From positions 2,752,001 through 2,816,000 of the forward strand of contig CH464491.1 in the NCBI GenBank assembly GCA_000002445.1: DNA of 64,000 nucleotides, in the 5' to 3' direction. A program made the translations under genes and the position numbers. This DNA is from Trypanosoma brucei (taxonomy: Eukaryota). Positions 22,812 through 55,001 of the stretch are shown here, piece after piece; position 1 is the first letter of the stretch; each line of letters starts with the position of its first letter. Under the pieces are notes generated by a model. It was not told the DNA's origin, did no database searches, and saw only the letters and a list, made by a program, of their open reading frames with translations.

Positions 22812-22854
<43 letters not shown>

Positions 22855-22856
22855 TT
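22812..22856. repeat. (AT)n microsatellite of about 15 units, flanked by an ATATAAAT motif, in a 1.7-kb spacer.
   Basis: gtatataaatatatatatatatatatatatatatatttatatat. Confidence 0.9.
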
Positions 22857-23854: not shown

Positions 23855-24840
23855 CTCTGCTGCATGCTTGAATGGGGAAAAAAAAAATCCAACAAAAAAG
23901 AAAAGGAGGGGAAGAAAGGAAATGGAAAGATACGGTTGCTGTAGGAAGAAGTGCAAAGTGACAGCAGGCAGCAAAAAAGAAAAATAGGAGGGAAAAGTGT
24001 CAATTGAAGTATTATGTATAAACAAGGAATGAAAAGAGAAGAAGTTAGTGTCGTATACGTAACCACTCAGAAAAGGGGTTACCGCTGTTACTACGACTAA
24101 AATTAGGCTATGTTTCCGTACTTGCATGTGCGTTTTTTTTGTGTGTGTGTGAGAGCACATGATTGTATATGATTGTGTTTTTGTATTTATTTATTATCTC
24201 CTCCACCCATTATTCACCTTTTTAATAACTAACGCAGTTAGAGCCTACCACTATTTCTTTGTGGATATTTTGGTATGCCCTGCGACTACGCCATTTCACC
24301 TTTAGAATCAGTTTGCCAATGGGTTTCTTTTTTTTCCATCCTCTGACTCAACGCATACATCCGGTTTGTCACGAGCATTTGTCACCTTCGCATGACTTTA
24401 TTGTTCGAATTGCTAATCATCTAAATGAATAAGTTTGTTACTGTTGGTACTCTGTATCTTTTTTCTTCCCTCTTTTTTTTTTACTTCCTTTTGTGTTTCT
24501 TGTATTTCTACCTGAAGCATAACACTAGTTCATCCAGTGCACGAAGTTTGAAAGGTGATTAAGGATTAGTTCACTCACCGCTGTTCAGTGCGCACACGCC
24601 TGTACTTTTTCACGTGCAAATGTGATGTGAGGGAGTTGAAGAGGGGAAGAAAAAGAAATATGAGGGGACATGTTGGATTTGTGCCGGTACACACTTACGT
24701 TGGAAAGTGTCATGCGTACCGCTGTGGCTGCTCGGTGCAATACACGTTTGAATGGTAATTTTTGCCTATTTTGTTATTGCTTGCTGGTGTTATTAATAAT
24801 GCTATTTATCGAGTAAGTAAATTTTTTGCGTCATTTTTCC

Positions 24841-27661: not shown

Positions 27662-28043
27662 TAGGTGTCTCTGTGTATTTCCTTCAATGCAGTAGGTAGG
27701 GACGCTATGAAGCAGCCGTGTCAGTTATTCCACGCGGTGTTTAGGCGTGCTACGTGTGTCAATGCGGGATTTTTAAAATTCTCCTCTCACGCCTTCCGTT
27801 ACTTCAGTGCCTCTACGTTAACACTGATGTTACATATTGGTTTACCATAATACCATTATGTCTTTCGTTACCGGATTTGTCTCGCAACAGGTTTCCCTTC
27901 TTTACAGTACGATATATCTGTGATCCTTTGTTTTGCTGCCGTTTTGGCTGTTTTTTTTTTTTTAATTCAAACGTTTAACATCCGATAATCAGTCGTCTAC
28001 GTGATTACGGTGCCAGCGATTGCTTAACTGGCGTATGGTCGTT

Positions 28044-28102
28044 GCATTTCCTCTTCTATTTCCTTCCCTTCTGTTTCTGTTTCCTTTTTTTTTACCTTTT
28101 AC
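28044..28102 (+). promoter_or_regulatory. Polypyrimidine tract upstream of the AP-endonuclease gene.
   Basis: gcatttcctcttctatttccttcccttctgtttctgtttcctttttttttaccttttac. The sequence acaacag follows. Confidence 0.5.
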
Positions 28103-28217
28103 AACAGAAGCATAAGCAGTTGGAGCCTCGGACGAAACAACTTTCGTAAACACGGGCACAGACTCGCAAATAGGGTCTACTGGGGTCAGCATTACTTTTA
28201 ATTGTTTATTATTATTT

Positions 28218-29936: not shown

Positions 29937-30365
29937 GATGCGAGCGTAGTATCAGGTGGTGGGGACACTCCCACTTGTTGAAGTGTGTGTCGAAATTTAA
30001 CATATGGAAGTAGGTGTGGCATCGACCTATCTAATACCCATTGGGGGGGGGGCGTCTGTGAAAGTCACTGCATGTGCCCAGCAGGCACCTCCGAAGGTAT
30101 CACCAGTGGTGTTTTCCTTTGCTCTGCACACTAATATTAATAATGGCTTCAAATTTTTTTTGCGTTTGTGGGTCTTTTTTGTAGGGGGAAAAGTTGCACT
30201 ACATTTCACTAAATGTACACAGTGCGATTTTTGTGTTGACTCGGCTCCCAACGTCCAGAAGTTTCTTGTGATTGCAGCGCAGCACTCCCCTTCAGTTCCT
30301 GAGGCGGTTTCTCGGTTCTCTTTCGCTTCTTTCTTTCGTCGGCTCTCATCATAAAAGTGGTTAGG

Positions 30366-40600: not shown

Positions 40601-43600
40601 AAGCTAAGGTTAGGGAAGACACACTGAAGCAAGAGCTAGACGAGGCTATGGGACGGGAAACTGCTCTGGAGGAACAACTGCGCAATCTGTCGCAAGCAAC
40701 TATCGCACTACAAGGTACACTGTATGGTGGAGAAATGCCTACGGGGAATGATGGATCTGCCTTGGATGTTGGTCATGCTGCTATGAGTGCACTGGAGCGT
40801 ATGCGTGAGGACGCTGCTAAGGCATCGGGGGTCATGACTGCCGCTATGCAGGAAGGAGAAATGAGTGTACCCCTGTTAGCAAAATGCCACCATATGGCAG
40901 AGACCACGAATGCATTGAATGAGAACGACCGCGAGCTGCGGATGATGTCCAGAAACTTATCCTTTCAACTCTCTGTAGCTATGTTGTTTTTGGAAGAGGC
41001 TGAAGAACGACTAACCCATGTTGTTCGGTATGGATGGGTCCCGGCGAAAGTTGTTTCTGCCGCACTCTGTGGTTGGTTAGTGTTGTGTTGTGCGGGAGAT
41101 TTATTTCACTGCAGCTCTGGCGACACTATTTCTACCTTGGTTGATGTGCGGAAGGAGTTGGATGATCTTCGGAAGCTGTGTGGTTCTCAGAATGCCTTCG
41201 ATCACGGGGAAGTTGCGAATGTGTCGCGGTCGGAATGCTTGCTCGCGATTAAGCGATCCGTCGCTTCTCTTTGCGCTGATGGCGCCGCAGATCCGTCGTT
41301 ACCTCTCCCAACTCAGTTGCAGAAGTGCGTGCAGTCAACCGTGGACGAAATGTATCGCCTTCGTGATGACGCGGATAGTGCGTTGAGTGAAAACGTCAGA
41401 CTAAAACGGGATTTGCAGATGGTTGTCGGGGGCTGTGAAACCTCCCTCGAGTATTTGGGAAGTGCGTGTGGATCCTCTTTGTGTCCCGCACTCAGTCCGC
41501 GATCAGGTGTAGCAGCGGTGTCTAACCTCGTCGTAATGACGGCACGAATTGCAAGTGAGAAATTGTCGAGTCTGCGATCCGTGTGTGAGGAATGTAACTC
41601 TGTTATTGAGCGTGCCCGTAGGAGAGAAGAGCGGTCTCACTCGCGGGAGTCTTCGCCAGCGTCACATCGTGTAGAGGATGGCGCAGAGGCTTTACTTGTG
41701 GAGCGTTGCAAAGAGCTGGTGTCGGAGCTGCTCGTGTTGCGTACCGATCGACGGACTAGCACGGCTGCAATAGACCAGAGGCTTATGGAGAGTGAGTTGA
41801 TGGTGACATCCGTACGAAATGCCATAGAGAACCTACGAACTTCCCTTGATATCGATGTACCTATCGGCACACCTGCCCTGGATTTAGTAAGGACTTCTGG
41901 TAGTTGTGGAGAAGCAGTTGAAGGTGCTATCAGTGAGAAAAGGCAAGTTTCCGCCACCGGACCGAGTTTAGCGGAACTGGACACCTCTATCCGTACCCAG
42001 CTCGAACTCTGCGTGCTTGCAGTGATCAGACAATTACGTGAAAAGGACCGGGTAATTTCCGCTGCGGCAACTTTGTTGGGAGATGCGCTGCGTTCATGCT
42101 CCAGTGCCATTAGAGACGAAGTTACTACTGATTCGCTTTTAGCGGTTGCAAGCGGTACTGCTCACAGTCTGCACTCCCTATTCTCAGAGTTACAGAGTGT
42201 TCGTGCGTCGCTTAAACAATCGCAGCACCACACGGAAGAGCTGCGTACGCGGTTGGAGGGGGGAGAAACAACGCAGCTGGCAACTCTGGAGGCGCAGACG
42301 GAGTCAGTTGCCACAGCGGAACGGCTACTTAATGAGGCACTACAACGACAAGTTGCGGCATCAGCGCAAACAGCAAGACTACAGCGGACGCTCATGGACT
42401 TCGCAGGAAGCATAGCAGCTTCAACGCTTTATGCTGACGATGCAGGTGACCGCGTTGATAAAACGGGAGATGTGGGGGCGTCGGTTTCCGTAGTGGAAGA
42501 GAGATGGCTAGACGGTATTGTAAGGCACGTTGCTCAGCGCATGCAGGAGTCTGAAAGTCTTAAGGGAAAGCTGAAGTTGGTTACATCAGAATTGGAGAGT
42601 GTACGAATAAGGATGACCGCTACTGAGGTGGCTGCACGGGAAGCAGAATTGAATGCGCAGAGTGTGGAAGTCGGTAATCTCACGCGGATAGCTGAAGCAA
42701 CGGCTCGTGTCGAGTTACTTCGCAACGCACTCAGTGAAAGAAGCGTGGAGTTGCAGAAGATGCACCAGCGTGTAGAGCGTCATGAGAAACAGGTGGAAAC
42801 TCTGAAGGCGGAGATTTCAAACGATGCGCGTTCTTTTGACAACGAGCGCTGCAGCCTCCTGCGAGCGCAATCCACGTTGCTAGCAGAAAATACACTGAAA
42901 CAGCAACAACTGGATGAACTTCGCCAAAAGCTATGGGAAGGTGAGAAAAGTCTCCACGAGTTCCTTCATAATTCTCGAGTGGTGTCGTTGGTCGATGCCA
43001 CAAATAAAATACGGAGCCTCTCGGCCAACGCCGTGTGCGGGGTTTTAATGCTTGACGAAATGGAGCGACGCTCCGAGATACTTCAGAGCTATATACTGAG
43101 TTTCCCGACGCAGGAAAGTACCCTTCTGAGTGTTTGTGCTTGCATTGCTAGCACCCTTTCTGAGCGTGAGGTGCAACGACTGCCTGACAGCGTGCACCGA
43201 CTTAACCAGCGGGTGCAGAAGTACAAACATTTGCTAGGAAACCCCACCAAAGTGCCAGGACCTACGCGAGCAGTGGCCGTTTTAGCCTTGCAAAAGTTGG
43301 CTGAAACAGTGGAGCTAGCGGAATCCGTGAGCAGCACATCCTTTGTTTCTAATTTGATCGCAGCCGTTGCCGATTTTCGGACTAGGTATCTAATAGCGAA
43401 CGAGCGGATAGCTAAACTGGAAAAGGAAGTGAATAGCGGCGGAACATTAATGGAGATGTGTGACAGACGGGTATGGGAAATGGTTAAGTTGCTCCGACAG
43501 GCCAACAGTGTCGGAGGGTTACACAGTGGGTCGCAGGAAGGGCCGCGGGGAGAGTGCCAAACCGACGTTGTAGACTTTTCAGTTGCTCAACTTGACGCCC

Positions 43601-46600
43601 TTCAGAGCTTGGCTTTAGAGTGTGGAATTGCTGCTAAATATATCCATCGTCATACCGAAGCAAACAGGAAGGCATTGGAAACTCTGCGTCATGTATATGA
43701 CGGCGAATCGATATTCGAAGCTTGTAGTCACGCCAATGAAATGATGATGAAGTACCGTGAGTCTGAGGAAGACTTGCGGGCTCAACTACTGGACGTACGT
43801 TCGCAGTTGGAAGCATGTCGACACAGCATTGAGGAAAGCTTTAGTGTGTTCGCCGAGACGAGTACGTTGAATGATGCTAAAAAGGTTGAGTTTCTCCAAC
43901 AACAGTGTGCTGCCGCTGCGGCGGAATTAAGGCGTCTCAAAGATGAAGCGCGCGTAGCACAGGGCCTTCTTGCAAGCGCTGGGCACGATACCCATGACGG
44001 TGATATCTGCAGGAACCTCGCAGAGTTGTTGAAAGAAGAAGAAAAGCAGCGAGAGTGTGTGAACCTACTCCAGTCGGAGAAGAAATGCGCGCGAAAGCAG
44101 TTGCAAGAATTAGGGAACAAACTGAGAGCAACGGAAGAAATGAGGAACGCTGAACTAGAAGAGGTGCAAAACCGCAATGACACATTGCGCACACGCTTGG
44201 AGGAACAGTCGAGGCAAAACAATGAATGGTGTCAATTTGTTTCGACATGTGCCGGTGTTGTTGGATGCCCTGTGGAGAACATGCAGTTTGAAAAGAGCAA
44301 AAATAAGATACTTCAAACTTTAAGGAATGTAGCCTCTTCGCAATCCGTATGCGCTGAGGCGGGAATACTCTGCACAACCGCGCAGGAGGAACAACTGCAG
44401 TGCCATCGCGAGGGGGCGAACGCGGCCGTTGCGCGTCTGGACATGCCAGGTAGCGAAAGATACCGCTGCCAACTGCTAGAGTTTGTGGGAAGTGTCGAAG
44501 AAGTCCTTTCCGAGTTGTGTCCCGAGAAGTCTGAAAGCTTTCTAACAACCAAAGATGCTCCTTTGGAGCTCCGCGTGTGCCAGGCGGCTGGACAACTGTG
44601 TTCGGCAAAAGATACTGTGCAGGCGAACATACAAAAACTGGAGGCTGAAATTGCTTCTGCCAAGAAGAAAAACAAAGCTCAAAAAAGAGAGATGGAAGAT
44701 GCGAGGAAGGCCCTTCACAAGGAACTTGAGGTTGGCGGCCCGGCGGTTGCATCTTGTGCTCTTTCAACACTTACTGAAGGCATTCGAAAAAAACTCCGTG
44801 AGACGCTTGACGAAAATCGAAAACTGGGAACGGCCTTGGAGGAGCTACGCATCGATAATGCGCAACTGGAGAGGACTCTAAGGTGTGTGGAACAACAACT
44901 CTCTGAGACGCATACGCAACTACAGTGCATCACAGAGTCAAATGGTGAATGCAGAGGTCAAAATGCCACCCTGCAGGAGAGAGTTGACCCGCTTACTGAA
45001 CCTACTGAAGAGGCTTCCAGGAAGTTCAGGAGCCCAACTCAGTCACCCGACATTGATGCTGATGCCGCCGGCCTTGCGCAAGTTCACGAAGTTTGCTTCG
45101 GTAGGGGGCCGAGCATACAACACCGCAGTGAGGAACCACGGGAGTTTGAGGATAATCTAAGGGGTAACTGCCGCAGTGATGCCGCTGCTGTGATGGACGT
45201 AGGTGTAGCGCCGAAAGAACAGCGTTCACTCCTGGAGAGGCTGCAGCAGGTGACCAAGGAACGCGACGTCTTGACATTGGAATCGGAAAAACTCGTTGAA
45301 CGTGTGCAGAGTGTGCTTTATGAGCACTTGAACGTCCAGCAGGAATTACTTTCCTATTGTAGTAACGCAAATGAAAATGAGTTGGGGGAAAGCGACACAA
45401 CCGTGGGGGATATTGTCCAGCTTTGCGTTGAGCGTCTGGAGCACTACCTCTCTGAAACAAAGACGCTGAGGGAAGACGCTACCTCCGCAAAACTAGAAAG
45501 CGCACGGATGGCAGAAGAGGTGGCTGCACTACGGGGTCGCATCAAACACCTCCAGGACGACAACCACGTAGCGGAACGGGACTCACTCAGGCAAAATGCA
45601 GAATTCGAGAGTCTGTCACGTCAGCTGCAGGCGTTCTTTAACGATGCATTGCACATGGCAGTCAATGACCTGCGACTCCGCTTGCCACCTGTCACAGACA
45701 CAAGCGCCATCGGGGCACTCTACGGTCTCCAGTCTCTTTTCGACTGCATGCTAAGTAAATGTCGTGATTCTATTGCTTTCGATGAAGAAAAGCTAAATTG
45801 CAGACTGAACGAACTGAAAGGAAAGCATGCGAAGGATTTAAAGAGTTTGCATCGCGTTTTTTGCGCCCACGTGACGACGTACACGGACGACCCAAATGAC
45901 GAGGACTCTGCTCGTAGCGAAGGTGACGGCAGCAGTCCCGTCAATTTGCCCACCACCGACAGGCTCAGCGGAGGGCTCACACCAGAACATATTGTTGCTG
46001 CGGGAGACGCACTGCATCACGTGCACAGCAACGTTTGTCACATTGTATGGGCATGTATACGACATGCGGAGAGGGCGCCCCCTCCTTCATTACATACAAT
46101 GGGCCTACCCGCGCTAACAGCACTTTTAGGGGAGGTTGTCGTTGCCTCACTAGAGCGGGCGGAGCTGCTGCAAGGGGCGATGGTGGCTGGGTCGAGGGCA
46201 CTTGGAATTCTTCCAGTGGACCCTTCTTTAAACCAGCAGCACATGGAGGAATGGTTAGAATGTTTTACCTCAGAAATTCAGCGCGTTCAGCGAAGCGGTG
46301 AAGGTTGTGAGCTCTTGCTTAATCATTTAGAGATTCTCCTACAAGACCACGGGATCAGCGTCGGAGAGTTAGTCAGCAACAGCCGCAGCCAAAGCACACT
46401 CAGTAATGTTGGTCGACTTTCACAAGACAACCAACTTGGCTCACCCCGTGGTCCCAGCAGCAGCGTGGCGGTGCAGGATGTCATGGAGTTTCGCTCTCGT
46501 GCACTGCTCGGTGCGTTGCGCGACCTTATTGCACAATTTGAGCACCGCTACAGCACACTGACGTCCGAGTGGCAGGCACTAACAGATCAAAACAACCGGC

Positions 46601-46905
46601 TCAAGACTTCACAGCAGGCAAATGAGGAGGAGTTTGCACGCGTCCAGGAGCAAATGCAAGAGCTGCGGCATGCTGTAAGAAAGAAGGTTGAAGACGACCG
46701 CAAAGTGGAGCAGAGCTTACGTGATCTAGACAACCATCTCGACATGCAAGCAAGGGAGCTTGCCATGAAGTATCGTGCAGACCAAGAGGCGATTTCCAGG
46801 CAGTTTGCAGAGTTGCGTGGGTCGATTCGCAGGGTGGTAATACCAACACAAGAGCAGTTGGGGACGCCGTCTCCGAAATACGATTTCGTGTACCCTAGGG
46901 AATAA
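34654..46905 (+). CDS. Giant repeat-containing protein (4083 aa). The N-terminal ~960 aa are non-repetitive. The central section holds about 4.5 near-identical 168-aa tandem repeats plus older diverged copies. The C-terminal ~2000 aa are a coiled-coil-rich region. It is probably a cytoskeletal or flagellar structural protein.
   Basis: ATG at 34654 and a single 12.25-kb ORF. The repeat unit is STRAQCLQGIESALAVLGTTEAEMPLASAIQRAAEEAKVREDTLKQELDEAMGRETALEEQLRNLSQATIALQGTLYGGEMPTGNDGSALDVGHAAMSALERMREDAAKASGVMTAAMQEGEMSVPLLAKCHHMAETTNALRDSEKHYRALVGEDVKKDSGSTGTDDS. Copies start at 37549, 38053, 38557, 39061 and 39565, the last one partial. The C-terminal region has E/L/R/Q-rich heptads. Confidence 0.9.
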   Translation: MPFAPQGPVMDLYNSDEGDLLAIRSEMWMCADSEKMFKVGAGRGSKNIVSIENGHFFVYSTCGKQSRLIKDVPFHSVKRTASFVHDPKVSGASTVSGMQTAASSSSSSARSRDRRADVQVPPYYYLVLEFVRDKTVAESTNLAKREHVVLCTDNVQDFQYWQQFVGRYKCQLNRTQRPDESVVGGRRSGKGCVKSASHKECDDSGSDETNLDISTLTMKLDELQEWKRIAVDLADAVASSGAFPNCRRESLSNTEPNVEFSLKYVEKLLGELRKGVDCRLNTLNETQPPLPLVKDLKQQLELWNSLYDRTFSDDRTSEARGLFTKERQQVRVQRMENIIARERTEGCTKLSPVVSRRELVTSPEEWLQLPCLSTLSDADSAQNLVGGQREGGVLDGSAITLLSSSTVHADAPQEVWQRERNLSSANEGDMFAELRAAHRNLGLRSAPQHEFHQLEREKKNTERLAREGLRAYTEATIVLLQACYSEYVTVVECVLSAISGGVDTRGERRLVTAYAHLQTVAALDEARRAATAKQTLLENLVNELKDLQKTRDEEINALRKTFFRAKDGWESDLAVLQTKLRTLQNTMTQTTVVVPSDTVSFPPLERALCGGESSQELGRDSGEDKVSNTKIESVDKASYDECDEADSDESIRRWATRLTCSHGEQRGHIIAFRLERFFHWTLENVVPLCSGADTNCLLELVMRALSNHITLLQAAGEVFGTQDVKVSVDDNGVRESRDLCSSIRDLHTQHSTLKHLVGKYIALTENEEDSPVLRCDELEKQLQLHQFNTATLDHINSLLGTDNMTIKRRIQDMIQNEEQLLRIQEITGSKREICTVQHVRQKHEELRQMSELINRLDQSRMHQEKDLTTQNYEAFTQMNTSVKKAEEIIENTTKKYNELQLRIDFDKIEFNERLQIVHEYYNEHPQHYHNNKINKQIEELNEIIEKQQNLIGHQDKKEKKTERNSSTRAQCLQGIESALAVLGTTEAEMPLASAIQRAAEEAKVREDTLKQELDEAMGRETALEEQLRNLSQATIALQGTLYGGEMPTGNDGSALDVGHAAMSALERMREDAAKASGVMTAAMQEGEMSVPLLAKCHHMAETTNALRDSEKHYRALVGEDVKKDSGSTGTDDSSTRAQCLQGIESALAVLGTTEAEMPLASAIQRAAEEAKVREDTLKQELDEAMGRETALEEQLRNLSQATIALQGTLYGGEMPTGNDGSALDVGHAAMSALERMREDAAKASGVMTAAMQEGEMSVPLLAKCHHMAETTNALRDSEKHYRALVGEDVKKDSGSTGTDDSSTRAQCLQGIESALAVLGTTEAEMPLASAIQRAAEEAKVREDTLKQELDEAMGRETALEEQLRNLSQATIALQGTLYGGEMPTGNDGSALDVGHAAMSALERMREDAAKASGVMTAAMQEGEMSVPLLAKCHHMAETTNALRDSEKHYRALVGEDVKKDSGSTGTDDSSTRAQCLQGIESALAVLGTTEAEMPLASAIQRAAEEAKVREDTLKQELDEAMGRETALEEQLRNLSQATIALQGTLYGGEMPTGNDGSALDVGHAAMSALERMREDAAKASGVMTAAMQEGEMSVPLLAKCHHMAETTNALRDSEKHYRALVGEDVKKDSGSTGTDDSSTRAQCLQGIESALAVLGTTEAEMPLASAIQRAAEEAKVREDTLRQELDEAMGRETALEEQLRNLSQATIALQGTVCEDGADVSCDISTFDLCSVAFLSLGVIESAFECSISREVSLKKQVEEAHKREVALRSRLKSLASAATAVQSTLDGNASPERVSPKESSICSGDEVDGDDAFVDPFVAVQRAAEESKACRNALEEKLKEGAARIDAVEGRLLQLSRSIICLHSKLFDAEIGGNGEERAVELSELALVAADAIENAFECSISREVSLKKKVEEAHKREVALKTRLKCLVGAATAVQCTLEGGNYSCTADDPLSLSGCDMSASTNLDDSVLGSVAAIQRAAEEAKVREDTLKQELDEAMGRETALEEQLRNLSQATIALQGTLYGGEMPTGNDGSALDVGHAAMSALERMREDAAKASGVMTAAMQEGEMSVPLLAKCHHMAETTNALNENDRELRMMSRNLSFQLSVAMLFLEEAEERLTHVVRYGWVPAKVVSAALCGWLVLCCAGDLFHCSSGDTISTLVDVRKELDDLRKLCGSQNAFDHGEVANVSRSECLLAIKRSVASLCADGAADPSLPLPTQLQKCVQSTVDEMYRLRDDADSALSENVRLKRDLQMVVGGCETSLEYLGSACGSSLCPALSPRSGVAAVSNLVVMTARIASEKLSSLRSVCEECNSVIERARRREERSHSRESSPASHRVEDGAEALLVERCKELVSELLVLRTDRRTSTAAIDQRLMESELMVTSVRNAIENLRTSLDIDVPIGTPALDLVRTSGSCGEAVEGAISEKRQVSATGPSLAELDTSIRTQLELCVLAVIRQLREKDRVISAAATLLGDALRSCSSAIRDEVTTDSLLAVASGTAHSLHSLFSELQSVRASLKQSQHHTEELRTRLEGGETTQLATLEAQTESVATAERLLNEALQRQVAASAQTARLQRTLMDFAGSIAASTLYADDAGDRVDKTGDVGASVSVVEERWLDGIVRHVAQRMQESESLKGKLKLVTSELESVRIRMTATEVAAREAELNAQSVEVGNLTRIAEATARVELLRNALSERSVELQKMHQRVERHEKQVETLKAEISNDARSFDNERCSLLRAQSTLLAENTLKQQQLDELRQKLWEGEKSLHEFLHNSRVVSLVDATNKIRSLSANAVCGVLMLDEMERRSEILQSYILSFPTQESTLLSVCACIASTLSEREVQRLPDSVHRLNQRVQKYKHLLGNPTKVPGPTRAVAVLALQKLAETVELAESVSSTSFVSNLIAAVADFRTRYLIANERIAKLEKEVNSGGTLMEMCDRRVWEMVKLLRQANSVGGLHSGSQEGPRGECQTDVVDFSVAQLDALQSLALECGIAAKYIHRHTEANRKALETLRHVYDGESIFEACSHANEMMMKYRESEEDLRAQLLDVRSQLEACRHSIEESFSVFAETSTLNDAKKVEFLQQQCAAAAAELRRLKDEARVAQGLLASAGHDTHDGDICRNLAELLKEEEKQRECVNLLQSEKKCARKQLQELGNKLRATEEMRNAELEEVQNRNDTLRTRLEEQSRQNNEWCQFVSTCAGVVGCPVENMQFEKSKNKILQTLRNVASSQSVCAEAGILCTTAQEEQLQCHREGANAAVARLDMPGSERYRCQLLEFVGSVEEVLSELCPEKSESFLTTKDAPLELRVCQAAGQLCSAKDTVQANIQKLEAEIASAKKKNKAQKREMEDARKALHKELEVGGPAVASCALSTLTEGIRKKLRETLDENRKLGTALEELRIDNAQLERTLRCVEQQLSETHTQLQCITESNGECRGQNATLQERVDPLTEPTEEASRKFRSPTQSPDIDADAAGLAQVHEVCFGRGPSIQHRSEEPREFEDNLRGNCRSDAAAVMDVGVAPKEQRSLLERLQQVTKERDVLTLESEKLVERVQSVLYEHLNVQQELLSYCSNANENELGESDTTVGDIVQLCVERLEHYLSETKTLREDATSAKLESARMAEEVAALRGRIKHLQDDNHVAERDSLRQNAEFESLSRQLQAFFNDALHMAVNDLRLRLPPVTDTSAIGALYGLQSLFDCMLSKCRDSIAFDEEKLNCRLNELKGKHAKDLKSLHRVFCAHVTTYTDDPNDEDSARSEGDGSSPVNLPTTDRLSGGLTPEHIVAAGDALHHVHSNVCHIVWACIRHAERAPPPSLHTMGLPALTALLGEVVVASLERAELLQGAMVAGSRALGILPVDPSLNQQHMEEWLECFTSEIQRVQRSGEGCELLLNHLEILLQDHGISVGELVSNSRSQSTLSNVGRLSQDNQLGSPRGPSSSVAVQDVMEFRSRALLGALRDLIAQFEHRYSTLTSEWQALTDQNNRLKTSQQANEEEFARVQEQMQELRHAVRKKVEDDRKVEQSLRDLDNHLDMQARELAMKYRADQEAISRQFAELRGSIRRVVIPTQEQLGTPSPKYDFVYPRE
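37545..39796 (+). repeat. Tandem array of a 504-bp unit (about 4.46 copies) inside the giant CDS. Copies differ by only 1-2 nucleotides.
   Basis: Unit starts, taken as the TCTACACGTGCCCAGTGCCTACAAGG landmark, are at 37549, 38053, 38557, 39061 and 39565. The period is exactly 504 bp. Copy 1 carries a TGT/TGC synonymous difference near 37936. Copy 5 carries an AAG-to-AGG change (K to R) near 39696 and diverges after about 39790. Confidence 0.95.
39871..40482 (+). repeat. Two diverged ~462-bp repeat copies related to the 504-bp unit (older, decayed copies).
   Basis: ATTGAAAGTGCTTTTGAGTGTTCAATATCTCGTGAAGTCTCCCTGAAGAAACAGGTGGAAGAGGCTCATAAAAGAGAAGTTGCGCTCAGG at 39871 matches ATTGAAAACGCTTTTGAGTGTTCAATATCTCGTGAAGTTTCCCTGAAGAAAAAGGTGGAAGAGGCTCATAAAAGAGAAGTTGCCCTTAAA at 40333 at about 90% identity. 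Each is followed by AVQRAAEESK and AIQRAAEEAK-like segments that echo the main unit. Confidence 0.8.
40577..40913 (+). repeat. Additional detached partial copy (~337 bp) of the 504-bp unit. It is near-identical to the array copies and sits 0.8 kb downstream.
   Basis: The stretch GCAATTCAGCGTGCTGCCGAGGAAGCTAAGGTTAGGGAAGACACACTGAAGCAAGAGCTAGACGAGGC...ACCACGAATGCATT matches the array unit from the AIQRAAEEAK motif through HMAETTNAL. Confidence 0.9.
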
Positions 46906-47741: not shown

Positions 47742-50700
47742 ATGTCGTCCCGCGATTTGAGGGGTCGGGCGTGTTCAAATTCAACTGCGGCTAGTGCTTC
47801 GCGACTGCTCTGTCTGCCATGGGAACTCGTTGAAGTTGAGCTTCCGAAAGAAATGGATGTTCCGGTAAGTGAATCACTATTTTCTGTTGGAAACGGACGT
47901 GTAACCGTCCGGGGATATACGGAGGAGTCACTCGTTGCGCCCCCGTATTCGAGGGGTACAAACTCTCACGATATAGCCATCCGTAGTCCTGTAGTTTCCT
48001 TGTACGGTGGTATTGGCAATGATGTCATCAAGGTGGGGAACAGGAGTTTGAGCAACAGTCATCTCCTTGGAAACCCATCTTCACCCGTTAGGTGTGACTC
48101 GTTACCCACCGAGGGGCACCCGACCGCCTCCAAAGAATGGAAGCCCCCTGAACGAACCCTGCGTGGGACTTACGTCAACGGGATCTGCGAGGAGCTTCTG
48201 TTAACCCATCATCAGCAGCAAAGGGCATTCACTGTTGGAACTTGTGCTCGTGAGTCATTTCTTGTATGTGCGCCGGATGCCTTTTGCATCGACGTTTTTG
48301 TCGGAGGTGAGCACGTGAATTCAGAAACAGGGATCATACTTTCGCACAGACGCACGTTAGATTATCACACGGGTGAGCTTCGTCGGCACCTGGTGTGGCA
48401 ATCCAGGAGTAATGGGCACGAGGTGACCATTGAGTCTTCAAGAATTGTTTCCCTAACACGGAGGAGCATCGCAGCAGTTAAATATTCTGTTAGTGCCAAG
48501 AACGTCTCCAATACGAATATCCGCATCGTATCTCGTACCATTGTTCCTTCGGGTGTGCGACAACACCTTAAGATTGAAAATGTTATGACTAGGCGCACTC
48601 TGCATGACGCTTCGACAGCGGTGCTTGTGCGCACACGAAATAGTTGCAAGCGGTTAGTGGTGGCTGAGTTTGAGGCTTGTCGTAGCACGCACTACGAGCT
48701 CATTAACACACAGAGTGTGCCGACGTTTTCAACTGTTACAAGTGCAGTAGGAGCACATGGTGCTAACACTCCACCGTGCGCCGTAGCAGCAGATGCGTCT
48801 TTAGCTGCAGGCCGGACACCATTGGCTTCGCCTAAGCCGATGGCACAACCACAGCCGCAACCAACACCATCCTTGACCTTCCTCGCACCGAAATGTTCTG
48901 AGATACGAAACGGCGCAGAAACCATCTACACCAGCGTAATACGTGAGTCTACACGGTTTGAGCTTACCAAATACATTGCCTTCCTAGTTGACGAGGATGC
49001 AGCACCGGAGGATATTTGTGACCTGGGAATGCACCGTGCTCGAGAAGCGGCTGCTGTCACCTACGAGGCCATCTGTCGCGAACAGTTGGACGTTTTGTCA
49101 AATTTCTGGGAGAGAGGGAATGTACATATCAAAGCCAGTGGTCCGTCGCTTGAAAGTGCGGTGAGATTTAACATGCTGCACCTTCTTATGTCGTCGGGAG
49201 GGTTACAAATGCAAAGTCACCCGTCGCGTGGTTTTATGAGTCAGCTGCAGGGAGGCATGCACCAGTGGGATGTAGACGCGTTTATCGTTCCTTTTTTCTC
49301 ACATGTGCGCCCCGAAGTCGCACGCGGGTTGTTGCAGTTTCGTATTGACACGCTGCCGCAAGCGAGAAGCCTTGCGGCGGACGTTGATCTTCCACGAGGT
49401 GCACTATACCCACAGAGGACTGTGAACGGTTTGGAAAGCAATCCTCCGCCGTTCTGCGCGGCCTTCCTGTTTACAAATGCGGTTGTTGCGTACGGTATGA
49501 AGCAGTATATTACTGCCACAAATGATTTCTCCATTCTACCGCAAGGTGGTGCTGATGTTCTCTTTTCTACTGCGCTCATTTGGCTTATATGGGGTACGTG
49601 GGATAAAGCAGAGTTCCACGTTAGATCTGTGGGGGGACCCGATGATTACAGCTGTCTCGGTGATAATAATTACTTTACAAATCTCATGGCAAAGTTTCAC
49701 ATGCAGTGGGCGGTGCAAATAGCCGCATCGATGCAAAGAGACTATCCTAACGAATGGGAAGGCGTGAAGGAGAGATGCCAACTAACTGATGATGACCTTG
49801 CAATGATGGACAAGGCCGCTGCAAAGGTGGTACTAGTTTTCGATGCCAAAAATCGTGTGCACCCTGTTGATCAGTTATTCATGAGGAAGAAAAAGTGGAA
49901 ATTTGATGAACTGAAGAAGAAGAAAAGTCTTCTATTTCGTACGTTTGACCCTTCTGTTGTTTACCGACATCAGGTATGTCGCATTCCCGACGTGGTTCTT
50001 GCCTCGCTTTTATTGCCGGAAAAGTGCACAAAAGACGAGGTGCGTGCCAACTACAATTTCTATGAGCCTATCACCACAAGCGATTGCTCGCTTACCTCGA
50101 TGATATTTAGTATCATTGCAATACAACTTGATATGTTGGACAAGGGAATGCACTATTTCCACCAGGCTCTCTTCAACGATATTGAAAATGCGCTCGGTAA
50201 TACAGCCCGCGGCATCCACTGCAGCTCCGCGGCGGGATCTTGGTGGTGTTTGACCGTTGGATTCGGTGGAATGAGGGTAGTTGATGACACACTGCACTTT
50301 AACCCTGTTCTCCCTGACGCGTGGGAGGAGTACCAGTTTTTTGTGCGCCATCACGGTTGCCTTATCAAGGTGCTTATTACTCGCAGGATGGTCACATATA
50401 CGGCTGTGGAGGGGTGCTTCGACAGGTGCGGTTTGCCGATTTATCATACGGAGATCAACACCATCCACCTGAAGGAAGGCATGTCTGAATCCGTGAGGCT
50501 TTACCGCGATGTTCGCGTATTTGACTTCGACTGTGTGGTGTTTAATCTTGACAGTTTGATCGAGGACCTGGAGGACCATCACTACCGCGCATGGAAGCAA
50601 ACCCTCGAGAAATACCTTCACGAAATGGGGCAAACTTCATTTGTGCTTACAGAGGACATATATCTTGCATACCTCAAGAATGGAAATTCGTTCACATCAT

Positions 50701-51341
50701 CTCAACGCCTTCTTGCGAAGAACGGCATTACAAACATCCCTCCTGGTTGCCCAGATGATACCGTTGAGACGGACACAGTATATGGGTTGCTGCAGCGCAA
50801 GCGGCATAACTTCCGCGTTCAGATTCGGGAGGAGGGGCTCAAAGTAAAAAAAGGGGCGCTGCACCTCATGGCGGAGCTCCGACAGAACGGCATTTCCATT
50901 GGTTGTGTGACAGACAGTAAAAGTGGTCAGTGGATGCTGCGAAGGGTGCCACAAGTTATGTGCCTAATCGACCGCTGCATTGATGGAAGTGATGGGGAAG
51001 TTCTTTCCCTCTGCTGGCGCCCGGAGGTGGACTACTTCTGCTCTCTGTGCAAACAACTCAATACCAGCTTCGAACGGACTATCGTTATTATGCGTGGGAT
51101 TGGGGGGTTCTCGAAAAGCGCACTGGAACAGTTCAAATTAGTTGTGGACGTGCAGCGCGATGCGGAGTATGTGCCGGGTGGAGTGCATCCTGTGAATGTG
51201 CCGTGCATGAGCGTGTTAACACTCGGCAAGTTGGATGAGTATGCCTCGAAAAGGAAATTAGTTGCCGTAGCGGGGGATGCCGATAGGCCCGCCACCGCAC
51301 CAAATAATATGGAGGGCGCTCCACCGGACCAGTTGGAATGA
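47742..51341 (+). CDS. Glycoside hydrolase family 65 disaccharide phosphorylase (maltose/trehalose/kojibiose-phosphorylase type) fused at its C-terminus to a HAD-superfamily beta-phosphoglucomutase-like domain.
   Basis: The track start at 47718 is TTG. The first ATG is at 47742 (MSSRDLRG...). The GH65 N-terminal beta-sandwich signature is SLFSVGNGRVTVRGY. The central (alpha/alpha)6 domain signatures are GGMHQWDVDAFIVPFF (compare GHxFWDxExFxxPFF) and GGPDDYSCLGDNNYFTNLMAKFHMQWAVQIA. The C-terminal ~300 aa carry HAD motif I (VFDFDCVVFNLDS, compare DLDGVITDT of beta-PGM) and later CVTDSKSG and AVAGDAD motifs. Confidence 0.75.
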   Translation: MSSRDLRGRACSNSTAASASRLLCLPWELVEVELPKEMDVPVSESLFSVGNGRVTVRGYTEESLVAPPYSRGTNSHDIAIRSPVVSLYGGIGNDVIKVGNRSLSNSHLLGNPSSPVRCDSLPTEGHPTASKEWKPPERTLRGTYVNGICEELLLTHHQQQRAFTVGTCARESFLVCAPDAFCIDVFVGGEHVNSETGIILSHRRTLDYHTGELRRHLVWQSRSNGHEVTIESSRIVSLTRRSIAAVKYSVSAKNVSNTNIRIVSRTIVPSGVRQHLKIENVMTRRTLHDASTAVLVRTRNSCKRLVVAEFEACRSTHYELINTQSVPTFSTVTSAVGAHGANTPPCAVAADASLAAGRTPLASPKPMAQPQPQPTPSLTFLAPKCSEIRNGAETIYTSVIRESTRFELTKYIAFLVDEDAAPEDICDLGMHRAREAAAVTYEAICREQLDVLSNFWERGNVHIKASGPSLESAVRFNMLHLLMSSGGLQMQSHPSRGFMSQLQGGMHQWDVDAFIVPFFSHVRPEVARGLLQFRIDTLPQARSLAADVDLPRGALYPQRTVNGLESNPPPFCAAFLFTNAVVAYGMKQYITATNDFSILPQGGADVLFSTALIWLIWGTWDKAEFHVRSVGGPDDYSCLGDNNYFTNLMAKFHMQWAVQIAASMQRDYPNEWEGVKERCQLTDDDLAMMDKAAAKVVLVFDAKNRVHPVDQLFMRKKKWKFDELKKKKSLLFRTFDPSVVYRHQVCRIPDVVLASLLLPEKCTKDEVRANYNFYEPITTSDCSLTSMIFSIIAIQLDMLDKGMHYFHQALFNDIENALGNTARGIHCSSAAGSWWCLTVGFGGMRVVDDTLHFNPVLPDAWEEYQFFVRHHGCLIKVLITRRMVTYTAVEGCFDRCGLPIYHTEINTIHLKEGMSESVRLYRDVRVFDFDCVVFNLDSLIEDLEDHHYRAWKQTLEKYLHEMGQTSFVLTEDIYLAYLKNGNSFTSSQRLLAKNGITNIPPGCPDDTVETDTVYGLLQRKRHNFRVQIREEGLKVKKGALHLMAELRQNGISIGCVTDSKSGQWMLRRVPQVMCLIDRCIDGSDGEVLSLCWRPEVDYFCSLCKQLNTSFERTIVIMRGIGGFSKSALEQFKLVVDVQRDAEYVPGGVHPVNVPCMSVLTLGKLDEYASKRKLVAVAGDADRPATAPNNMEGAPPDQLE

Positions 51342-53960: not shown

Positions 53961-54212
53961 TGCACGGCATTCTCTTCATTGTTAATACGGTGTCTCTGAA
54001 CTGCTCCCCATATTGGCGGATGCTCCGCTGTGCTTGGAAAAAGAACTAAGTCGTGGCTCAAAAAAAAAAAAAAGCCAATCCTTGTTACCAACACTGGTTG
54101 TTCATGTTGCACAATTTCATGTTTATTTTTTTTTCTTTTGCAAAACTGTTTAGTTTTGGAAGTTAACAGCACAAACGCAACGTTGGCACCGTTTCCTTTT
54201 ATCCCTTGTGTA

Positions 54213-55001
54213 ATGTATGCGACTCGTGCTAAGGTGCTGTTGTTCCGGTTAGCGACTTTCGTGCTTGTGTCTGTTGTGCGTGGCCAAGAGGAAGTCACTG
54301 AACACAAATACAACATCGTGTTCTCTCGCGACCCAGTCCCCAGTGGACTAAGTGAGGAACAGTACTATCCAATGCGGCTTAGCAACGGTTCGGCCTACTT
54401 GTGCGTGCTGCCTGACATTACTGTCGAAGAGAAGAAGACACTTCAGGCCGAGGACAGTGAACTAGATGTTCCGCTCTCCTTAGAACATGTGGCTGTGGTT
54501 AACAGAGCGCTGAAGAACATGTGCTACACGATGGAGGAATCGTGGTGGACGTACCGATTATGTTGGGGGTCAGGTGTGGAGCAGTTTCACCGTTCTGCGG
54601 TTGCCGGGGATAGCAAATCGAATGCTCCGAAGCAAATGAAAGAGGACCCGCACTTCGTGTTGGGAGTGGCCCCACCTGCGGACGTGTTGGACTTGCGCTA
54701 CGGCGTGAACACAAAAGGCTTGCGATATATTTACACCATATACAGCGATGGTTTAACGTGTGATCTCACACAACTCCCCCGGACAACGGAGGTGCAGTTG
54801 TACTGCGCACGCGAGGGCGAAGGTAACAGTCCAACTATGCGTGTGCGAGAGGCAGAAGTGTGTCGCTACATCGTTAGTTTAACAGCCAAAGAGGTGTGTC
54901 TACTAGGGTTGAAGGAAATTCAACAGCGGTATGGTGTGATTACGTGTCATGAAACAAAACCCACGAACACAGTAGATTGGAACAATAAACAACAGGGTTA
55001 G
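54213..55001 (+). CDS. OS-9/Yos9-like ER lectin with a mannose-6-phosphate-receptor-homology (MRH) domain. It is a likely ERAD substrate-recognition factor.
   Basis: The first ATG in the track ORF is at 54213, giving a cleavable signal peptide (MYATRAKVLLFRLATFVLVSVVRGQEE). The MRH core reads YLCVLPD...CYTMEESWWTYRLCWGSGVEQFH...YIYTIYSDGLTCDLT...EVQLYCAREGEGNS...CRYIVSLTAKEVC. That is the WWTYEFC-type motif plus conserved Cys pairs. Confidence 0.65.
   Translation: MYATRAKVLLFRLATFVLVSVVRGQEEVTEHKYNIVFSRDPVPSGLSEEQYYPMRLSNGSAYLCVLPDITVEEKKTLQAEDSELDVPLSLEHVAVVNRALKNMCYTMEESWWTYRLCWGSGVEQFHRSAVAGDSKSNAPKQMKEDPHFVLGVAPPADVLDLRYGVNTKGLRYIYTIYSDGLTCDLTQLPRTTEVQLYCAREGEGNSPTMRVREAEVCRYIVSLTAKEVCLLGLKEIQQRYGVITCHETKPTNTVDWNNKQQG

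What the first reader, a model, noticed from the sequence alone, without database searches (positions are those of the whole stretch)
47742..51341. A bacterial-type GH65 disaccharide phosphorylase fused in-frame to a beta-phosphoglucomutase-like HAD domain, forming a two-step pathway in one polypeptide
The N-terminal ~900 aa carry GH65 hallmarks. These are the N-terminal beta-sandwich motif SVGNGRVTVRGY and the central (alpha/alpha)6 motifs GGMHQWDVDAFIVPFF and GDNNYFTNLMAKFHMQWAVQIA. The C-terminal ~300 aa carry HAD motif I (FDFDCVVFNLDS), as found in beta-phosphoglucomutases. In bacteria, a maltose/trehalose/kojibiose phosphorylase and a beta-PGM are usually separate, adjacent operon genes. 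Together they convert a disaccharide to glucose plus beta-Glc-1-P and then to Glc-6-P. A single-chain fusion in a trypanosomatid suggests an ancient horizontally acquired module that channels beta-glucose-1-phosphate. Neither the substrate nor the role of this enzyme in the parasite is evident from the sequence.
Basis: partly seen in the sequence, partly recalled or inferred. Interest (0 to 1): 0.7.

Follow-up and report, generated by a model that had tools for sequence, protein, structure and literature searches.

The report
Degenerate two-enzyme sugar fusion protein
This Trypanosoma brucei gene really does encode a sugar phosphorylase (GH65) fused to a beta-phosphoglucomutase-like domain, but both active sites have lost residues that every working relative keeps, so it is most likely a conserved 'dead enzyme' rather than a two-step pathway in one chain.

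Summary
Window 47742..51341 (+) is one uninterrupted 1199-codon ORF. It has three GH65 Pfam domains and a C-terminal beta-phosphoglucomutase-type HAD domain, and both folds were confirmed. The window is Trypanosoma brucei. TriTrypDB already names a T. brucei gene, Tb927.4.2410, with exactly this architecture.

The functional reading is not supported for this protein. Only 5 of the 11 defining GH65 active-site residues remain. The catalytic acid Glu is Asp635. That position reads G, N, M, I, T or H in other trypanosomatids, but Glu in 134 of 134 non-kinetoplastid relatives. The true motif is F-N935-L-D-S, so the nucleophile Asp is Asn. The motif IV Mg ligands are Met-Arg.

The fusion is not trypanosomatid-specific. 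Syntenic kinetoplastid orthologues and a diplonemid carry it and keep the catalytic acid and HAD Asp residues. A few bacteria also carry it, although bacterial genes are usually separate (57 of 63 loci).

The ORF is conserved and syntenic across more than 12 species, and pN/pS is about 0.35. The best reading is a trehalose-phosphorylase-type fusion inherited in Kinetoplastea and kept as a probable pseudoenzyme. Its present role is unknown.

The parts
47742..51341 (+). Complete ORF of 1199 codons plus TGA: the GH65-HAD fusion protein.
   Evidence: It is 99% identical to the T. b. equiperdum 'glycosyl hydrolase' P0001.
47862..48671 (+). GH65 N-terminal beta-sandwich domain (aa 41-310). In the model the sandwich continues at aa 378-417, after an insertion.
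   Evidence: Pfam PF03636, 6.9e-28. Strands in the AlphaFold model.
47925..48164 (+). Predicted disordered insertion 1 (aa 62-141) inside the N-domain. It is absent from bacterial GH65.
   Evidence: pLDDT below 50. Gapped against bacterial homologues.
48702..48863 (+). Predicted disordered, low-complexity insertion 2 (aa 321-374). It is Gln- and Pro-rich in the orthologues.
   Evidence: pLDDT below 50. Orthologue sequences.
49164..50243 (+). GH65 central (alpha/alpha)6 catalytic-type domain (aa 475-834).
   Evidence: Pfam PF03632, 9.4e-68. PDB kojibiose and maltose phosphorylases, 1e-55 to 1e-49. Foldseek TM 0.82-0.87.
49227..49271 (+). Phosphate-site and -1-subsite segment: R496 (CsKP K330, kept as Arg), Q503 (Y337 lost), Q508 (F342 lost), W509 and D510 (W343 and D344 kept).
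   Evidence: Residue roles from PMC11442529 Table 2.
49413..49418 (+). +1-subsite motif Q558-R559. Intact relatives have W-R here, part of the trehalose-phosphorylase 'WRA' signature.
   Evidence: 114 non-kinetoplastid hits have WRA, and T. brucei, T. congolense and T. vivax have Q-R. Motif meaning from PMC11442529.
49641..49646 (+). D634-D635. D635 occupies the position of the GH65 catalytic acid Glu (LbMP E487, CsKP E483).
   Evidence: Glu in 134 of 134 non-kinetoplastid hits. D/G/N/M/I/T/H/V/A within the kinetoplastid-type clade.
49980..49985 (+). R747-I748 at the positions of the -1-subsite ligands K596 and Q597 (CsKP numbering). Both are changed.
   Evidence: Other hits have K in 134 of 134 and Q in 133 of 134.
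50085..50090 (+). C782-S783 at the phosphate-binding Ser-Ser (CsKP S631-S632). The first Ser is Cys.
   Evidence: S631 is Ser in 134 of 134 other hits.
50217..50219 (+). H826, the phosphate-site His (CsKP H675), retained.
50271..50414 (+). GH65 C-terminal beta-sheet domain (aa 844-891).
   Evidence: Pfam PF03633, 4.6e-13.
50526..51164 (+). Beta-phosphoglucomutase-type HAD domain with a helical cap (aa 929-1141).
50532..50555 (+). Strand beta1 plus true HAD motif I, C-V-V-F-N935-L-D937-S. The nucleophile Asp (beta-PGM D8) is Asn. D10 is kept.
   Evidence: HMMER register to beta-PGM. Alignment. The model strand ends at N935. D8 is Asp in 40 of 42 bacterial-type fused proteins.
50910..50912 (+). 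HAD motif II, Thr1057 (beta-PGM S114), retained.
51018..51020 (+). HAD motif III position, Arg1093 in place of beta-PGM K145. It is Arg in most of the kinetoplastid-type clade.
51090..51104 (+). HAD motif IV, M1117-R1118-G-I-G1121. The beta-PGM residues E169-D170 (Mg2+ ligands) and the second Asp of 'DGIDG' are all lost.
   Evidence: D170 is Asp in 41 of 42 bacterial-type fused proteins and in most other trypanosomatids.
51339..51341 (+). TGA stop. T. b. equiperdum has CGA here and reads on for 9 more residues (RVTTTLPAT). The same residues (VTTTLPAT) remain in frame after the window's stop.

Best explanation
The ORF encodes a genuine fusion of a GH65 glycoside-phosphorylase-type module and a beta-phosphoglucomutase-type HAD module. 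The GH65 module is of trehalose-phosphorylase ancestry.

Origin. The fused gene was already present in the kinetoplastid ancestor, and a similar fusion occurs in a diplonemid. It has been inherited vertically at a conserved chromosomal position. In the syntenic kinetoplastid orthologues and in the diplonemid relative the GH65 catalytic acid and the HAD Asp residues are kept.

Decay. In trypanosomatids the GH65 active site has decayed. In the African trypanosomes T. brucei and T. vivax the HAD active site has decayed as well.

This protein. The T. brucei protein lacks the catalytic acid Glu (Asp635), three of five -1-subsite ligands, and two of five phosphate-site residues. It also lacks the HAD nucleophile (Asn935) and the Mg2+-binding acidic pair (Met1117-Arg1118). 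It is therefore most likely inactive for both canonical reactions. It appears to be kept by purifying selection as a folded pseudoenzyme with a non-catalytic role, such as ligand binding, scaffolding or regulation.

Shown: the architecture, the fold, the residue losses, the conservation and the synteny. Inferred: loss of activity and a non-catalytic role. Unknown: what that role is.
For: Architecture and fold.

Defining residues from the literature. [quoted passage not shown] An E472Q mutant keeps less than 0.1% activity (PMC8626586). The phosphate site is K/R, Y, S-S and H, and the -1 subsite is F, W, D, K and Q.

GH65 scorecard:
- T. brucei keeps 5 of 11 residues (R Q Q W D D R I C S H).
- All trypanosomatids keep 2-7 of 11.
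- 122 of 134 other hits keep 11 of 11.
- The acid Glu, K596 and S631 are each present in 134 of 134 other hits.
- Across 164 sequences, all 15 without Glu at the acid position lie in the kinetoplastid-type clade.
- The position varies even among close species (D, D, G, D, N, E, E, E), which indicates no selection on it.

HAD:
- The 42 bacterial-type fused proteins have D8 in 40, D10 in 41, K145 in 40, E169 in 41 and D170 in 41.
- T. brucei has N, D, R, M and R at those positions.
- The register is fixed by HMMER and by the modelled strand.

Still under constraint:
- The ORF of about 1150-1270 codons is intact in T. brucei, T. vivax, T. theileri, T. grayi, T. conorhini, T. cruzi, T. rangeli, Strigomonas and others, at 42-59% identity.
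- Synteny with T. cruzi and with two non-trypanosomatid kinetoplastid contigs is conserved.
- pN/pS is about 0.35 between T. b. brucei and T. b. equiperdum, from 7 non-synonymous and 6 synonymous changes.
- A transcript of the like-named gene Tb927.4.2410 is detected and regulated.

Ancestry:
- The trypanosomatids nest inside a clade of GH65-HAD fusions.
- The syntenic orthologues P0020 and P0021 keep the acid Glu, K596, S-S, H and the HAD Asp residues.
- Flectonema P0029 and P0027 keep 11 of 11.
- 114 outgroup hits carry the trehalose-phosphorylase 'WRA' motif.
Against: No activity was measured, so inactivity is inferred from sequence.

Asp at the acid position (T. brucei, T. congolense, T. 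theileri) could in principle still donate a proton at a reduced rate.

The pocket keeps W509, D510, R496, S783 and H826. A remodelled pocket that is conserved within trypanosomatids could serve a different substrate or a different chemistry.

The T. cruzi clade keeps the acid Glu and a complete set of HAD core residues, so 'dead' may not apply to the whole family.

The selection estimate rests on only 13 substitutions.

The AlphaFold models are of moderate confidence (mean pLDDT 61.6 and 69.9) and are low in several active-site loops, so structural compensation cannot be excluded.

The identity of the window gene with Tb927.4.2410 is inferred, not shown.
Confidence: 0.6

Rival explanations
1. 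The protein is an active bifunctional enzyme that phosphorolyses an alpha-glucobiose and channels beta-glucose-1-phosphate to its own beta-phosphoglucomutase domain to make glucose-6-phosphate.
For: Both domains are present in the right order in one ORF. Relatives with the same fusion and the catalytic acid and HAD Asp residues intact exist in other kinetoplastids, a diplonemid and some bacteria. The phosphate-site residues R496, S783 and H826 and the HAD residues D937 and T1057 are kept.
Against: The HAD nucleophile is Asn935 and the Mg2+ ligand pair is Met-Arg, so the mutase step lacks both the phospho-acceptor and the metal site. The GH65 acid Glu is Asp, and 6 of 11 defining residues are changed. 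The acid position is Gly in T. vivax and Asn in T. grayi, so it is not under selection. A survey of trehalose pathways scored Trypanosoma and Leishmania as lacking trehalose breakdown (PMC13237430).
Confidence: 0.05
2. Neo-functionalised enzyme. The GH65 domain is still catalytic but has a remodelled pocket. It would act on a different substrate, or by a different reaction such as hydrolysis or glycosyl transfer, with Asp635 or another carboxylate as the acid. The dead HAD domain would serve as a ligand-binding or regulatory appendage.
For: Several substitutions are shared across trypanosomatids rather than random: LbMP E361 to Asp, K596 to Arg in most, and R496 kept. GH65 is known to have evolved hydrolase, phosphorylase and glycosyltransferase activities, and the transferase arose with a change at the conserved Tyr337 (PMC11442529). 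That Tyr is also changed here (Q503, and His in T. vivax). The fold is well preserved, and conservation is typical of a functional protein.
Against: All three known GH65 reaction types use the same catalytic acid Glu. The acid position is freely variable among trypanosomatids, including Gly, Met and Ile, which cannot act as acids. Tyr337, Phe342 and Gln597 also vary between species instead of settling on a new consensus.
Confidence: 0.2
3. A gene in terminal decay. The protein has no function in T. brucei and the ORF is simply not yet broken.
For: Catalytic residues are lost in both domains. The window allele carries a stop codon that removes 9 C-terminal residues present in T. b. equiperdum. 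The within-species pN/pS of 0.35 rests on 13 changes and has wide uncertainty.
Against: An open frame of 1199 codons is kept in every trypanosome examined, although the active-site decay predates their divergence. There is 55-59% identity to orthologues in other Trypanosoma species, with hundreds of invariant positions outside the active sites. Synteny is conserved. The folded core is confidently modelled. A transcript of the like-named gene is detected.
Confidence: 0.1

Closest known systems
Bacterial GH65 trehalose-phosphorylase-type enzymes with a beta-phosphoglucomutase partner. The partner is an adjacent gene in Demequina (locus L001) and is fused as GH65-HAD in Paenibacillus xerothermodurans (L049).
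   Same: Same four-part GH65 fold and the same beta-PGM-type HAD domain. The outgroup carries the 'WRA' +1 motif of trehalose phosphorylases. Catalytic-domain identity is 30-42%.
   Different: The bacterial proteins keep 11 of 11 GH65 residues and all HAD core residues. The T. brucei protein keeps 5 of 11 and lacks the HAD nucleophile and Mg ligands. It also has two long disordered insertions. In bacteria the genes are usually separate, with HAD upstream (51 of 63 loci).
Kinetoplastid and diplonemid GH65-HAD fusion proteins with the catalytic acid retained: P0021 and P0020 (syntenic metagenomic kinetoplastid orthologues), P0029 (Flectonema neradi) and P0027.
   Same: Same domain order. P0020 and P0021 sit in the same gene neighbourhood. 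The kinetoplastid members share HAD peculiarities (G11 to Ser, K145 to Arg, E169 to a hydrophobic residue). They form the clade in which the trypanosomatid proteins nest.
   Different: They retain the acid Glu, K596, the Ser-Ser pair and His, and the HAD Asp residues at D8, D10 and motif IV. They could therefore be active, and the T. brucei protein probably is not.
Mycobacterium tuberculosis Rv3400 beta-phosphoglucomutase (PDB 8h5s).
   Same: It is the best sequence match (3e-12) and the best fold match (4.7e-10) for the HAD domain. It shares the long cap insertion '..IP.G.PDD......TVYGL..RK..'.
   Different: Rv3400 has FDLDG, GKP and FED motifs. The T. brucei domain has FNLDS, WRP and IMR.
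Kojibiose phosphorylases (PDB 6w0p, 3wiq) and L. brevis maltose phosphorylase (1h54).
   Same: They are the closest solved structures of the GH65 part: 1e-55 to 1e-49 by sequence and TM 0.83-0.87 by fold.
   Different: Their +1 motifs differ (WET and MVI). They are single-module enzymes, and they have an intact acid and phosphate site.
Trypanosomatid 'prozymes' and other conserved pseudoenzymes. This comparison rests on my own knowledge and was not tested here.
   Same: An enzyme-derived protein that has lost catalytic residues yet is conserved.
   Different: Prozymes are paralogues that activate a live partner enzyme. No second GH65 or beta-PGM gene of T. brucei was seen among the named hits, so a partner is not evident.

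Membership tests
CAZy family GH65 (fold level) | N-terminal beta-sandwich, helical linker, (alpha/alpha)6 barrel and C-terminal beta-sheet domain (PMC8626586). | tested here: met
   Three Pfam GH65 domains score above their cut-offs. The AlphaFold model shows all four regions. Foldseek gives TM 0.82-0.87 to GH65 phosphorylases.
CAZy family GH65 (catalytically competent member) | Catalytic acid Glu (CsKP E483, LbMP E487), 'conserved in all GH65 enzymes' (PMC11442529). | tested here: not met
   It is Asp635 in T. brucei. It is Glu in 134 of 134 non-kinetoplastid hits and variable (D/G/N/M/I/T/H) across trypanosomatids.
CAZy family GH65 (catalytically competent member) | -1 subsite residues F342, W343, D344, K596 and Q597 (CsKP numbering). 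| tested here: not met
   T. brucei has Q508, W509, D510, R747 and I748, so 2 of 5 are kept. Other hits have these residues in at least 129 of 134.
GH65 glycoside phosphorylases | Phosphate site: K/R330, Y337, S631, S632 and H675. | tested here: not met
   T. brucei has R496, Q503, C782, S783 and H826, so 3 of 5 are kept.
GH65 trehalose phosphorylases | +1 subsite 'WRA' motif (PMC11442529). | tested here: not met
   T. brucei has Q558-R559 where intact relatives have W-R. 114 outgroup hits have WRA. The third position is not reliably aligned in trypanosomatids.
GH65 glycoside phosphorylases | Phosphate-dependent cleavage of an alpha-glucoside, yielding beta-glucose-1-phosphate. | not testable with these tools
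   This needs an enzyme assay.
GH65 glycoside hydrolases | General-base Glu (FjGH65A E616) in place of the phosphate site. | tested here: inconclusive
   Sequence matches to the hydrolases (7fe3, PGGHG) stop at query aa 679-681. No conserved Glu is seen upstream of H826 in the orthologue alignment. The protein is phosphorylase-like at S783 and H826.
Beta-phosphoglucomutase (HAD superfamily, helical cap) | HAD Rossmann-like core with an inserted helical cap. Closest folds are beta-PGMs. | tested here: met
   Foldseek puts Rv3400 beta-PGM first (4.7e-10), followed by L. lactis, B. subtilis and other beta-PGMs. Model confidence is moderate (pLDDT 61.6).
Beta-phosphoglucomutase | Motif I nucleophile Asp (D8). 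| tested here: not met
   It is Asn935. It is Asp in 40 of 42 bacterial-type fused proteins.
Beta-phosphoglucomutase | Motif I general acid/base Asp (D10). | tested here: met
   Asp937.
Beta-phosphoglucomutase | Motif II Ser/Thr (S114). | tested here: met
   Thr1057.
Beta-phosphoglucomutase | Motif III Lys (K145). | tested here: inconclusive
   It is Arg1093, and Arg in most of the kinetoplastid-type clade. It is Lys in 40 of 42 bacterial-type fused proteins. Arg may or may not substitute.
Beta-phosphoglucomutase | Motif IV acidic residues that bind Mg2+ (E169, D170). | tested here: not met
   Met1117-Arg1118, and the second Asp of 'DGIDG' is Gly1121. D170 is Asp in 41 of 42 bacterial-type fused proteins.
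Beta-phosphoglucomutase | Curated model cut-offs: NCBIfam TIGR01990 and TIGR02009, Pfam PF00702 and PF13419. | tested here: not met
   Scores against cut-offs are 30.6 vs 189.4, 53.8 vs 153.35, 21.6 vs 26.4 and 16.4 vs 23.8 bits.

The most novel reading that the evidence does not exclude
The trypanosomatid GH65-HAD proteins may be a new functional subfamily. They have given up the catalytic acid that is otherwise universal in GH65, and in African trypanosomes the HAD nucleophile as well. Yet they have been conserved since the base of the trypanosomatid radiation. This would mean they acquired a new role. That role could be a sugar- or sugar-phosphate-binding sensor or scaffold built from two dead enzymes. 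Alternatively it could be a glycoside-processing chemistry that does not use the canonical acid.
Probability: 0.2. Interest if true: 0.65.

Novelty: new variant of a known kind. Interest (0 to 1): 0.4.

Why it matters
The fusion itself is not new. It is already written into a public gene name, and it occurs in other kinetoplastids, a diplonemid and some bacteria.

Two things are worth knowing. First, annotating this gene as a 'glycosyl hydrolase' or 'trehalase' and placing it in metabolic reconstructions of T. brucei is probably wrong. Second, the trypanosomatid clade is a clear exception to the statement that the catalytic acid is conserved in all GH65 enzymes.

The clade also gives a graded natural series. 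Diplonemid and bacterial relatives are fully intact. Other kinetoplastids keep the catalytic acid and most other active-site residues. The T. cruzi clade is partly decayed. In T. brucei and T. vivax both domains are decayed. This series could be used to study how a bifunctional enzyme turns into a pseudoenzyme, and what such a protein is kept for in a parasite.

Tried and rejected
1. I considered that the invariant upstream D928-F929-D930 might be the working DxD motif, or a 7-residue duplication of motif I (note). I rejected this. The segment aligns with the start of strand beta1 in bacterial fused proteins ('RFDAVLFDMDG') and in L. lactis beta-PGM ('MFKAVLFDLDG'). Both models end the strand at N935.

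2. The tblastn coverage in the bacterial genome scan suggested that fused genes are widespread in named Actinomycetota. ORF listings did not fit this. A frame check and an ORF-plus-HMM classification showed that most loci are two adjacent genes. Only 6 of 63 are true fusions.

3. I first labelled LbMP K592 as a phosphate ligand. The review table shows it is the -1-subsite Lys (CsKP K596). The phosphate Lys/Arg is CsKP K330, which is kept as R496.

4. The midpoint-rooted neighbour-joining tree and the identity rankings could not name a bacterial donor. The closest outgroups sit at a flat 38-42% identity, so no donor is claimed.

5. Tandem Repeats Finder found nothing in the upstream gene because the repeat period of 504 nt exceeds its limit. 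A direct search found the repeats.

6. The first dN/dS script failed on a file name and was repeated. A comparison of two T. cruzi assemblies was uninformative because the coding sequences are identical.

7. Literature searches for GH65 with trypanosomes, and for glycosyl hydrolase with beta-PGM in T. brucei, found no functional study. Only one paper in the library mentions Tb927.4.2410.

8. The share of GH65-HAD fusions among the top profile hits (56 of 167) is not a frequency. The query profile included the HAD domain, which favours fused proteins.

Full report
**1. Observation**

Window 47742..51341 (+) is a single open frame of 1199 codons, from ATG to TGA.

Pfam finds Glyco_hydro_65N (aa 41-310, 6.9e-28), Glyco_hydro_65m (aa 475-834, 9.4e-68) and Glyco_hydro_65C (aa 844-891, 4.6e-13). 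All three are above the curated cut-offs.

The C-terminal 270 residues match HAD models only below cut-off. They are nevertheless significantly similar to beta-phosphoglucomutases:
- NCBIfam TIGR02009, 2.6e-14
- PDB 8h5s (M. tuberculosis Rv3400), 3e-12, and L. lactis beta-PGM, about 5e-7

An AlphaFold model of aa 901-1199 (mean pLDDT 61.6) finds Rv3400 and then a run of beta-PGM structures by Foldseek. The full-length model (mean pLDDT 69.9) shows the beta-sandwich, helical linker, (alpha/alpha)6 barrel and C-terminal beta domain of GH65, with two long disordered insertions. It matches GH65 phosphorylase structures at TM 0.82-0.87.

**2. Organism and annotation**

The protein is 99% identical to a T. 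brucei equiperdum 'glycosyl hydrolase'. It has full-length orthologues in T. vivax, T. theileri, T. grayi, T. conorhini, T. cruzi and T. rangeli, and a partial one in T. congolense. Orthologues also occur in Strigomonas culicis and Phytomonas.

[quoted passage not shown] It appears as a regulated transcript in one RNA-seq study (PMC7952579). Only one T. brucei-group cluster was found, so the window gene is probably this one. That identity is inferred, not shown. I found no functional study.

**3. GH65 active site**

The literature defines the family's catalytic apparatus. [quoted passage not shown] The -1 subsite is F342, W343, D344, K596 and Q597. Phosphorylases add a phosphate site of K/R330, Y337, S631, S632 and H675 (PMC11442529; PMC8626586).

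I aligned the window protein, its orthologues and the 150 best hits of an exhaustive profile search to a catalytic-domain HMM. I read off these 11 positions using the L. brevis enzyme as a ruler.

T. brucei has R496, Q503, Q508, W509, D510, D635, R747, I748, C782, S783 and H826, which is 5 of 11. Trypanosomatids as a group keep 2-7 of 11. Of the 134 non-kinetoplastid hits, 122 keep all 11, and the acid Glu, K596 and S631 are present in all 134.

The acid position reads as follows:
- D in T. brucei, T. congolense and T. theileri
- G in T. vivax
- N in T. grayi
- E in T. cruzi, T. conorhini and T. rangeli
- M, M, I and T in non-Trypanosoma trypanosomatids

A catalytic residue under selection does not behave like this.

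The +1 motif is 'WRA' in 114 outgroup hits, which is the trehalose-phosphorylase signature. It begins with Q in the African trypanosomes.

**4. HAD active site**

The upstream 'FD' matches the strand start of bacterial proteins.

The nucleophile is therefore Asn. Motif IV, which is E169-D170 in beta-PGM and 'MDGIDG' in most trypanosomatids, is M1117-R1118-G-I-G1121 here.

In 42 bacterial-type fused proteins D8, D10, K145, E169 and D170 are each present in at least 40. T. vivax shares the D8-to-N change and has Asn at D170. The other trypanosomes keep D8, D10, Thr/Ser and the motif IV Asp, although most of the kinetoplastid-type clade has K145 as Arg and E169 as a hydrophobic residue.

The mutase half of the proposed pathway therefore lacks its phospho-acceptor and its metal site in T. 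brucei.

**5. Distribution and origin of the fusion**

The profile search found many proteins that match through both domains in one stretch. They include one from the diplonemid Flectonema neradi and several from metagenomes.

Two of them, P0021 and P0020, lie on contigs with the same gene order as the window (compare). The order is giant upstream gene, GH65-HAD, then a gene of about 370-400 aa and a PRKCSH-domain gene, all on one strand. They are therefore orthologues from other kinetoplastids.

They keep the acid Glu, K596, Ser-Ser, His and the HAD Asp residues. The trypanosomatid proteins nest within this clade of fusions in a neighbour-joining tree.

In 80 named bacterial loci, careful ORF-level classification gave these counts:
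- 51 loci with separate genes and HAD upstream
- 6 loci with separate genes and HAD downstream
- 3 GH65-HAD fusions, including Paenibacillus xerothermodurans
- 3 HAD-GH65 fusions
- 17 loci with GH65 only within the 1.5-kb flank

The closest Demequina GH65 gene has its HAD gene directly upstream.

A bacterial origin of the module is plausible. The relatives are bacterial and of trehalose-phosphorylase type, and the HAD domain is closest to actinobacterial Rv3400. However, the outgroup identities are flat at 38-42%, so no donor can be named.

**6. Is the gene still under constraint?**

The frame is open over about 1150-1270 codons in every species examined. Identity to the T. brucei protein is 55-59% within Trypanosoma and 42-44% to other trypanosomatids, with hundreds of invariant positions.

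Between T. b. brucei and T. b. equiperdum there are 7 non-synonymous and 6 synonymous codon changes, giving pN/pS of about 0.35. The counts are small.

The folded core is modelled with pLDDT 80-93. This argues against a gene in free decay.

**7. Conclusion and rivals**

The most likely reading (about 0.6) is a vertically inherited fusion of a trehalose-phosphorylase-type GH65 module and a beta-PGM-type module. Its catalytic machinery has decayed in trypanosomatids, and in both domains in T. brucei, while the protein is kept for a non-catalytic role that remains unknown.

A remodelled but still catalytic GH65 domain (about 0.2) cannot be excluded without assays. GH65 has changed reaction type before, with a change at Tyr337. 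But the free variation of the acid position argues against this reading.

**8. Novelty**

The architecture is already annotated. The new element is that a whole, conserved eukaryotic clade breaks the 'universal' GH65 catalytic acid, and that the African trypanosome proteins are degenerate in both domains. I rate this as a new variant of a known kind, of moderate interest.

Noticed in passing
window 51339-51341 and the next 27 nt: The stop codon of the GH65-HAD ORF is TGA, where T. b. equiperdum has CGA and reads on for 9 residues (RVTTTLPAT). The window still encodes VTTTLPAT in frame after its stop. Most orthologues end in a hydroxyl-rich tail such as SLVT, SLST, TLKT, TLET or SLAT. The window allele therefore truncates a weakly conserved C-terminal tail.
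   Followed up: partly
window 34654-46905 (+), repeats at about 37549-40070: The upstream gene encodes a 4083-aa protein with no Pfam hit. It contains five near-identical tandem repeats of 168 aa (504 nt), starting at aa 966, 1134, 1302, 1470 and 1638, and a sixth degenerate copy near aa 1976. A giant gene sits at the same syntenic position in T. cruzi and in two metagenomic kinetoplastid contigs.
   Followed up: partly
window 54030-55001 (+): Two genes downstream lies a 323-aa protein with a PRKCSH (glucosidase II beta-subunit-like, MRH) domain, 7e-12. It keeps its position next to the GH65-HAD gene in T. cruzi and in the other kinetoplastid contigs. I did not examine whether this linkage means anything.
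   Followed up: no
L005 11378-12778 and L007 12458-13993: In the non-trypanosomatid kinetoplastid contigs a DBR1-like metallophosphatase gene lies directly downstream of the GH65-HAD gene. No such gene is called at that position in the T. brucei equiperdum or T. cruzi loci.
   Followed up: no
window 1-64000: All but one of the 18 ORFs of 250 aa or more are on the + strand, and cumulative GC skew rises steadily. This is as expected for one trypanosomatid polycistronic unit. GC content dips to 0.378 at 22001-24000, in a gap between ORFs.
   Followed up: no
window 24965-33122 (+): Neighbouring genes encode a HEAT/importin-like protein (24965-27661), an endonuclease/exonuclease/phosphatase-family protein (28218-29936) and an adaptin N-terminal-region protein (30357-33122, 4e-87).
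   Followed up: no
P0022, P0030, P0019, P0023 and P0024 (profile-search hits): Some kinetoplastid-type relatives are greatly expanded by low-complexity insertions, reaching 1726, 1870 and 2856 aa. P0022 and P0030 score only 2-3 of 11 GH65 residues and show no detectable HAD domain. Their source organisms are unnamed.
   Followed up: partly
P0163 (profile-search hit, 1195 aa): This is a very divergent GH65-HAD protein from a sequencing-run assembly. It keeps 2 of 11 GH65 residues (acid position Ala), and its HAD motif I reads M-L-E. It could be a second, even more degenerate lineage or a paralogue. Its origin is unknown.
   Followed up: no
P0018 (Strigomonas culicis): Public databases name this orthologue 'alpha,alpha-trehalase'. 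It has Thr at the catalytic acid position and keeps 5 of 11 active-site residues, so the name is probably misleading.
   Followed up: partly
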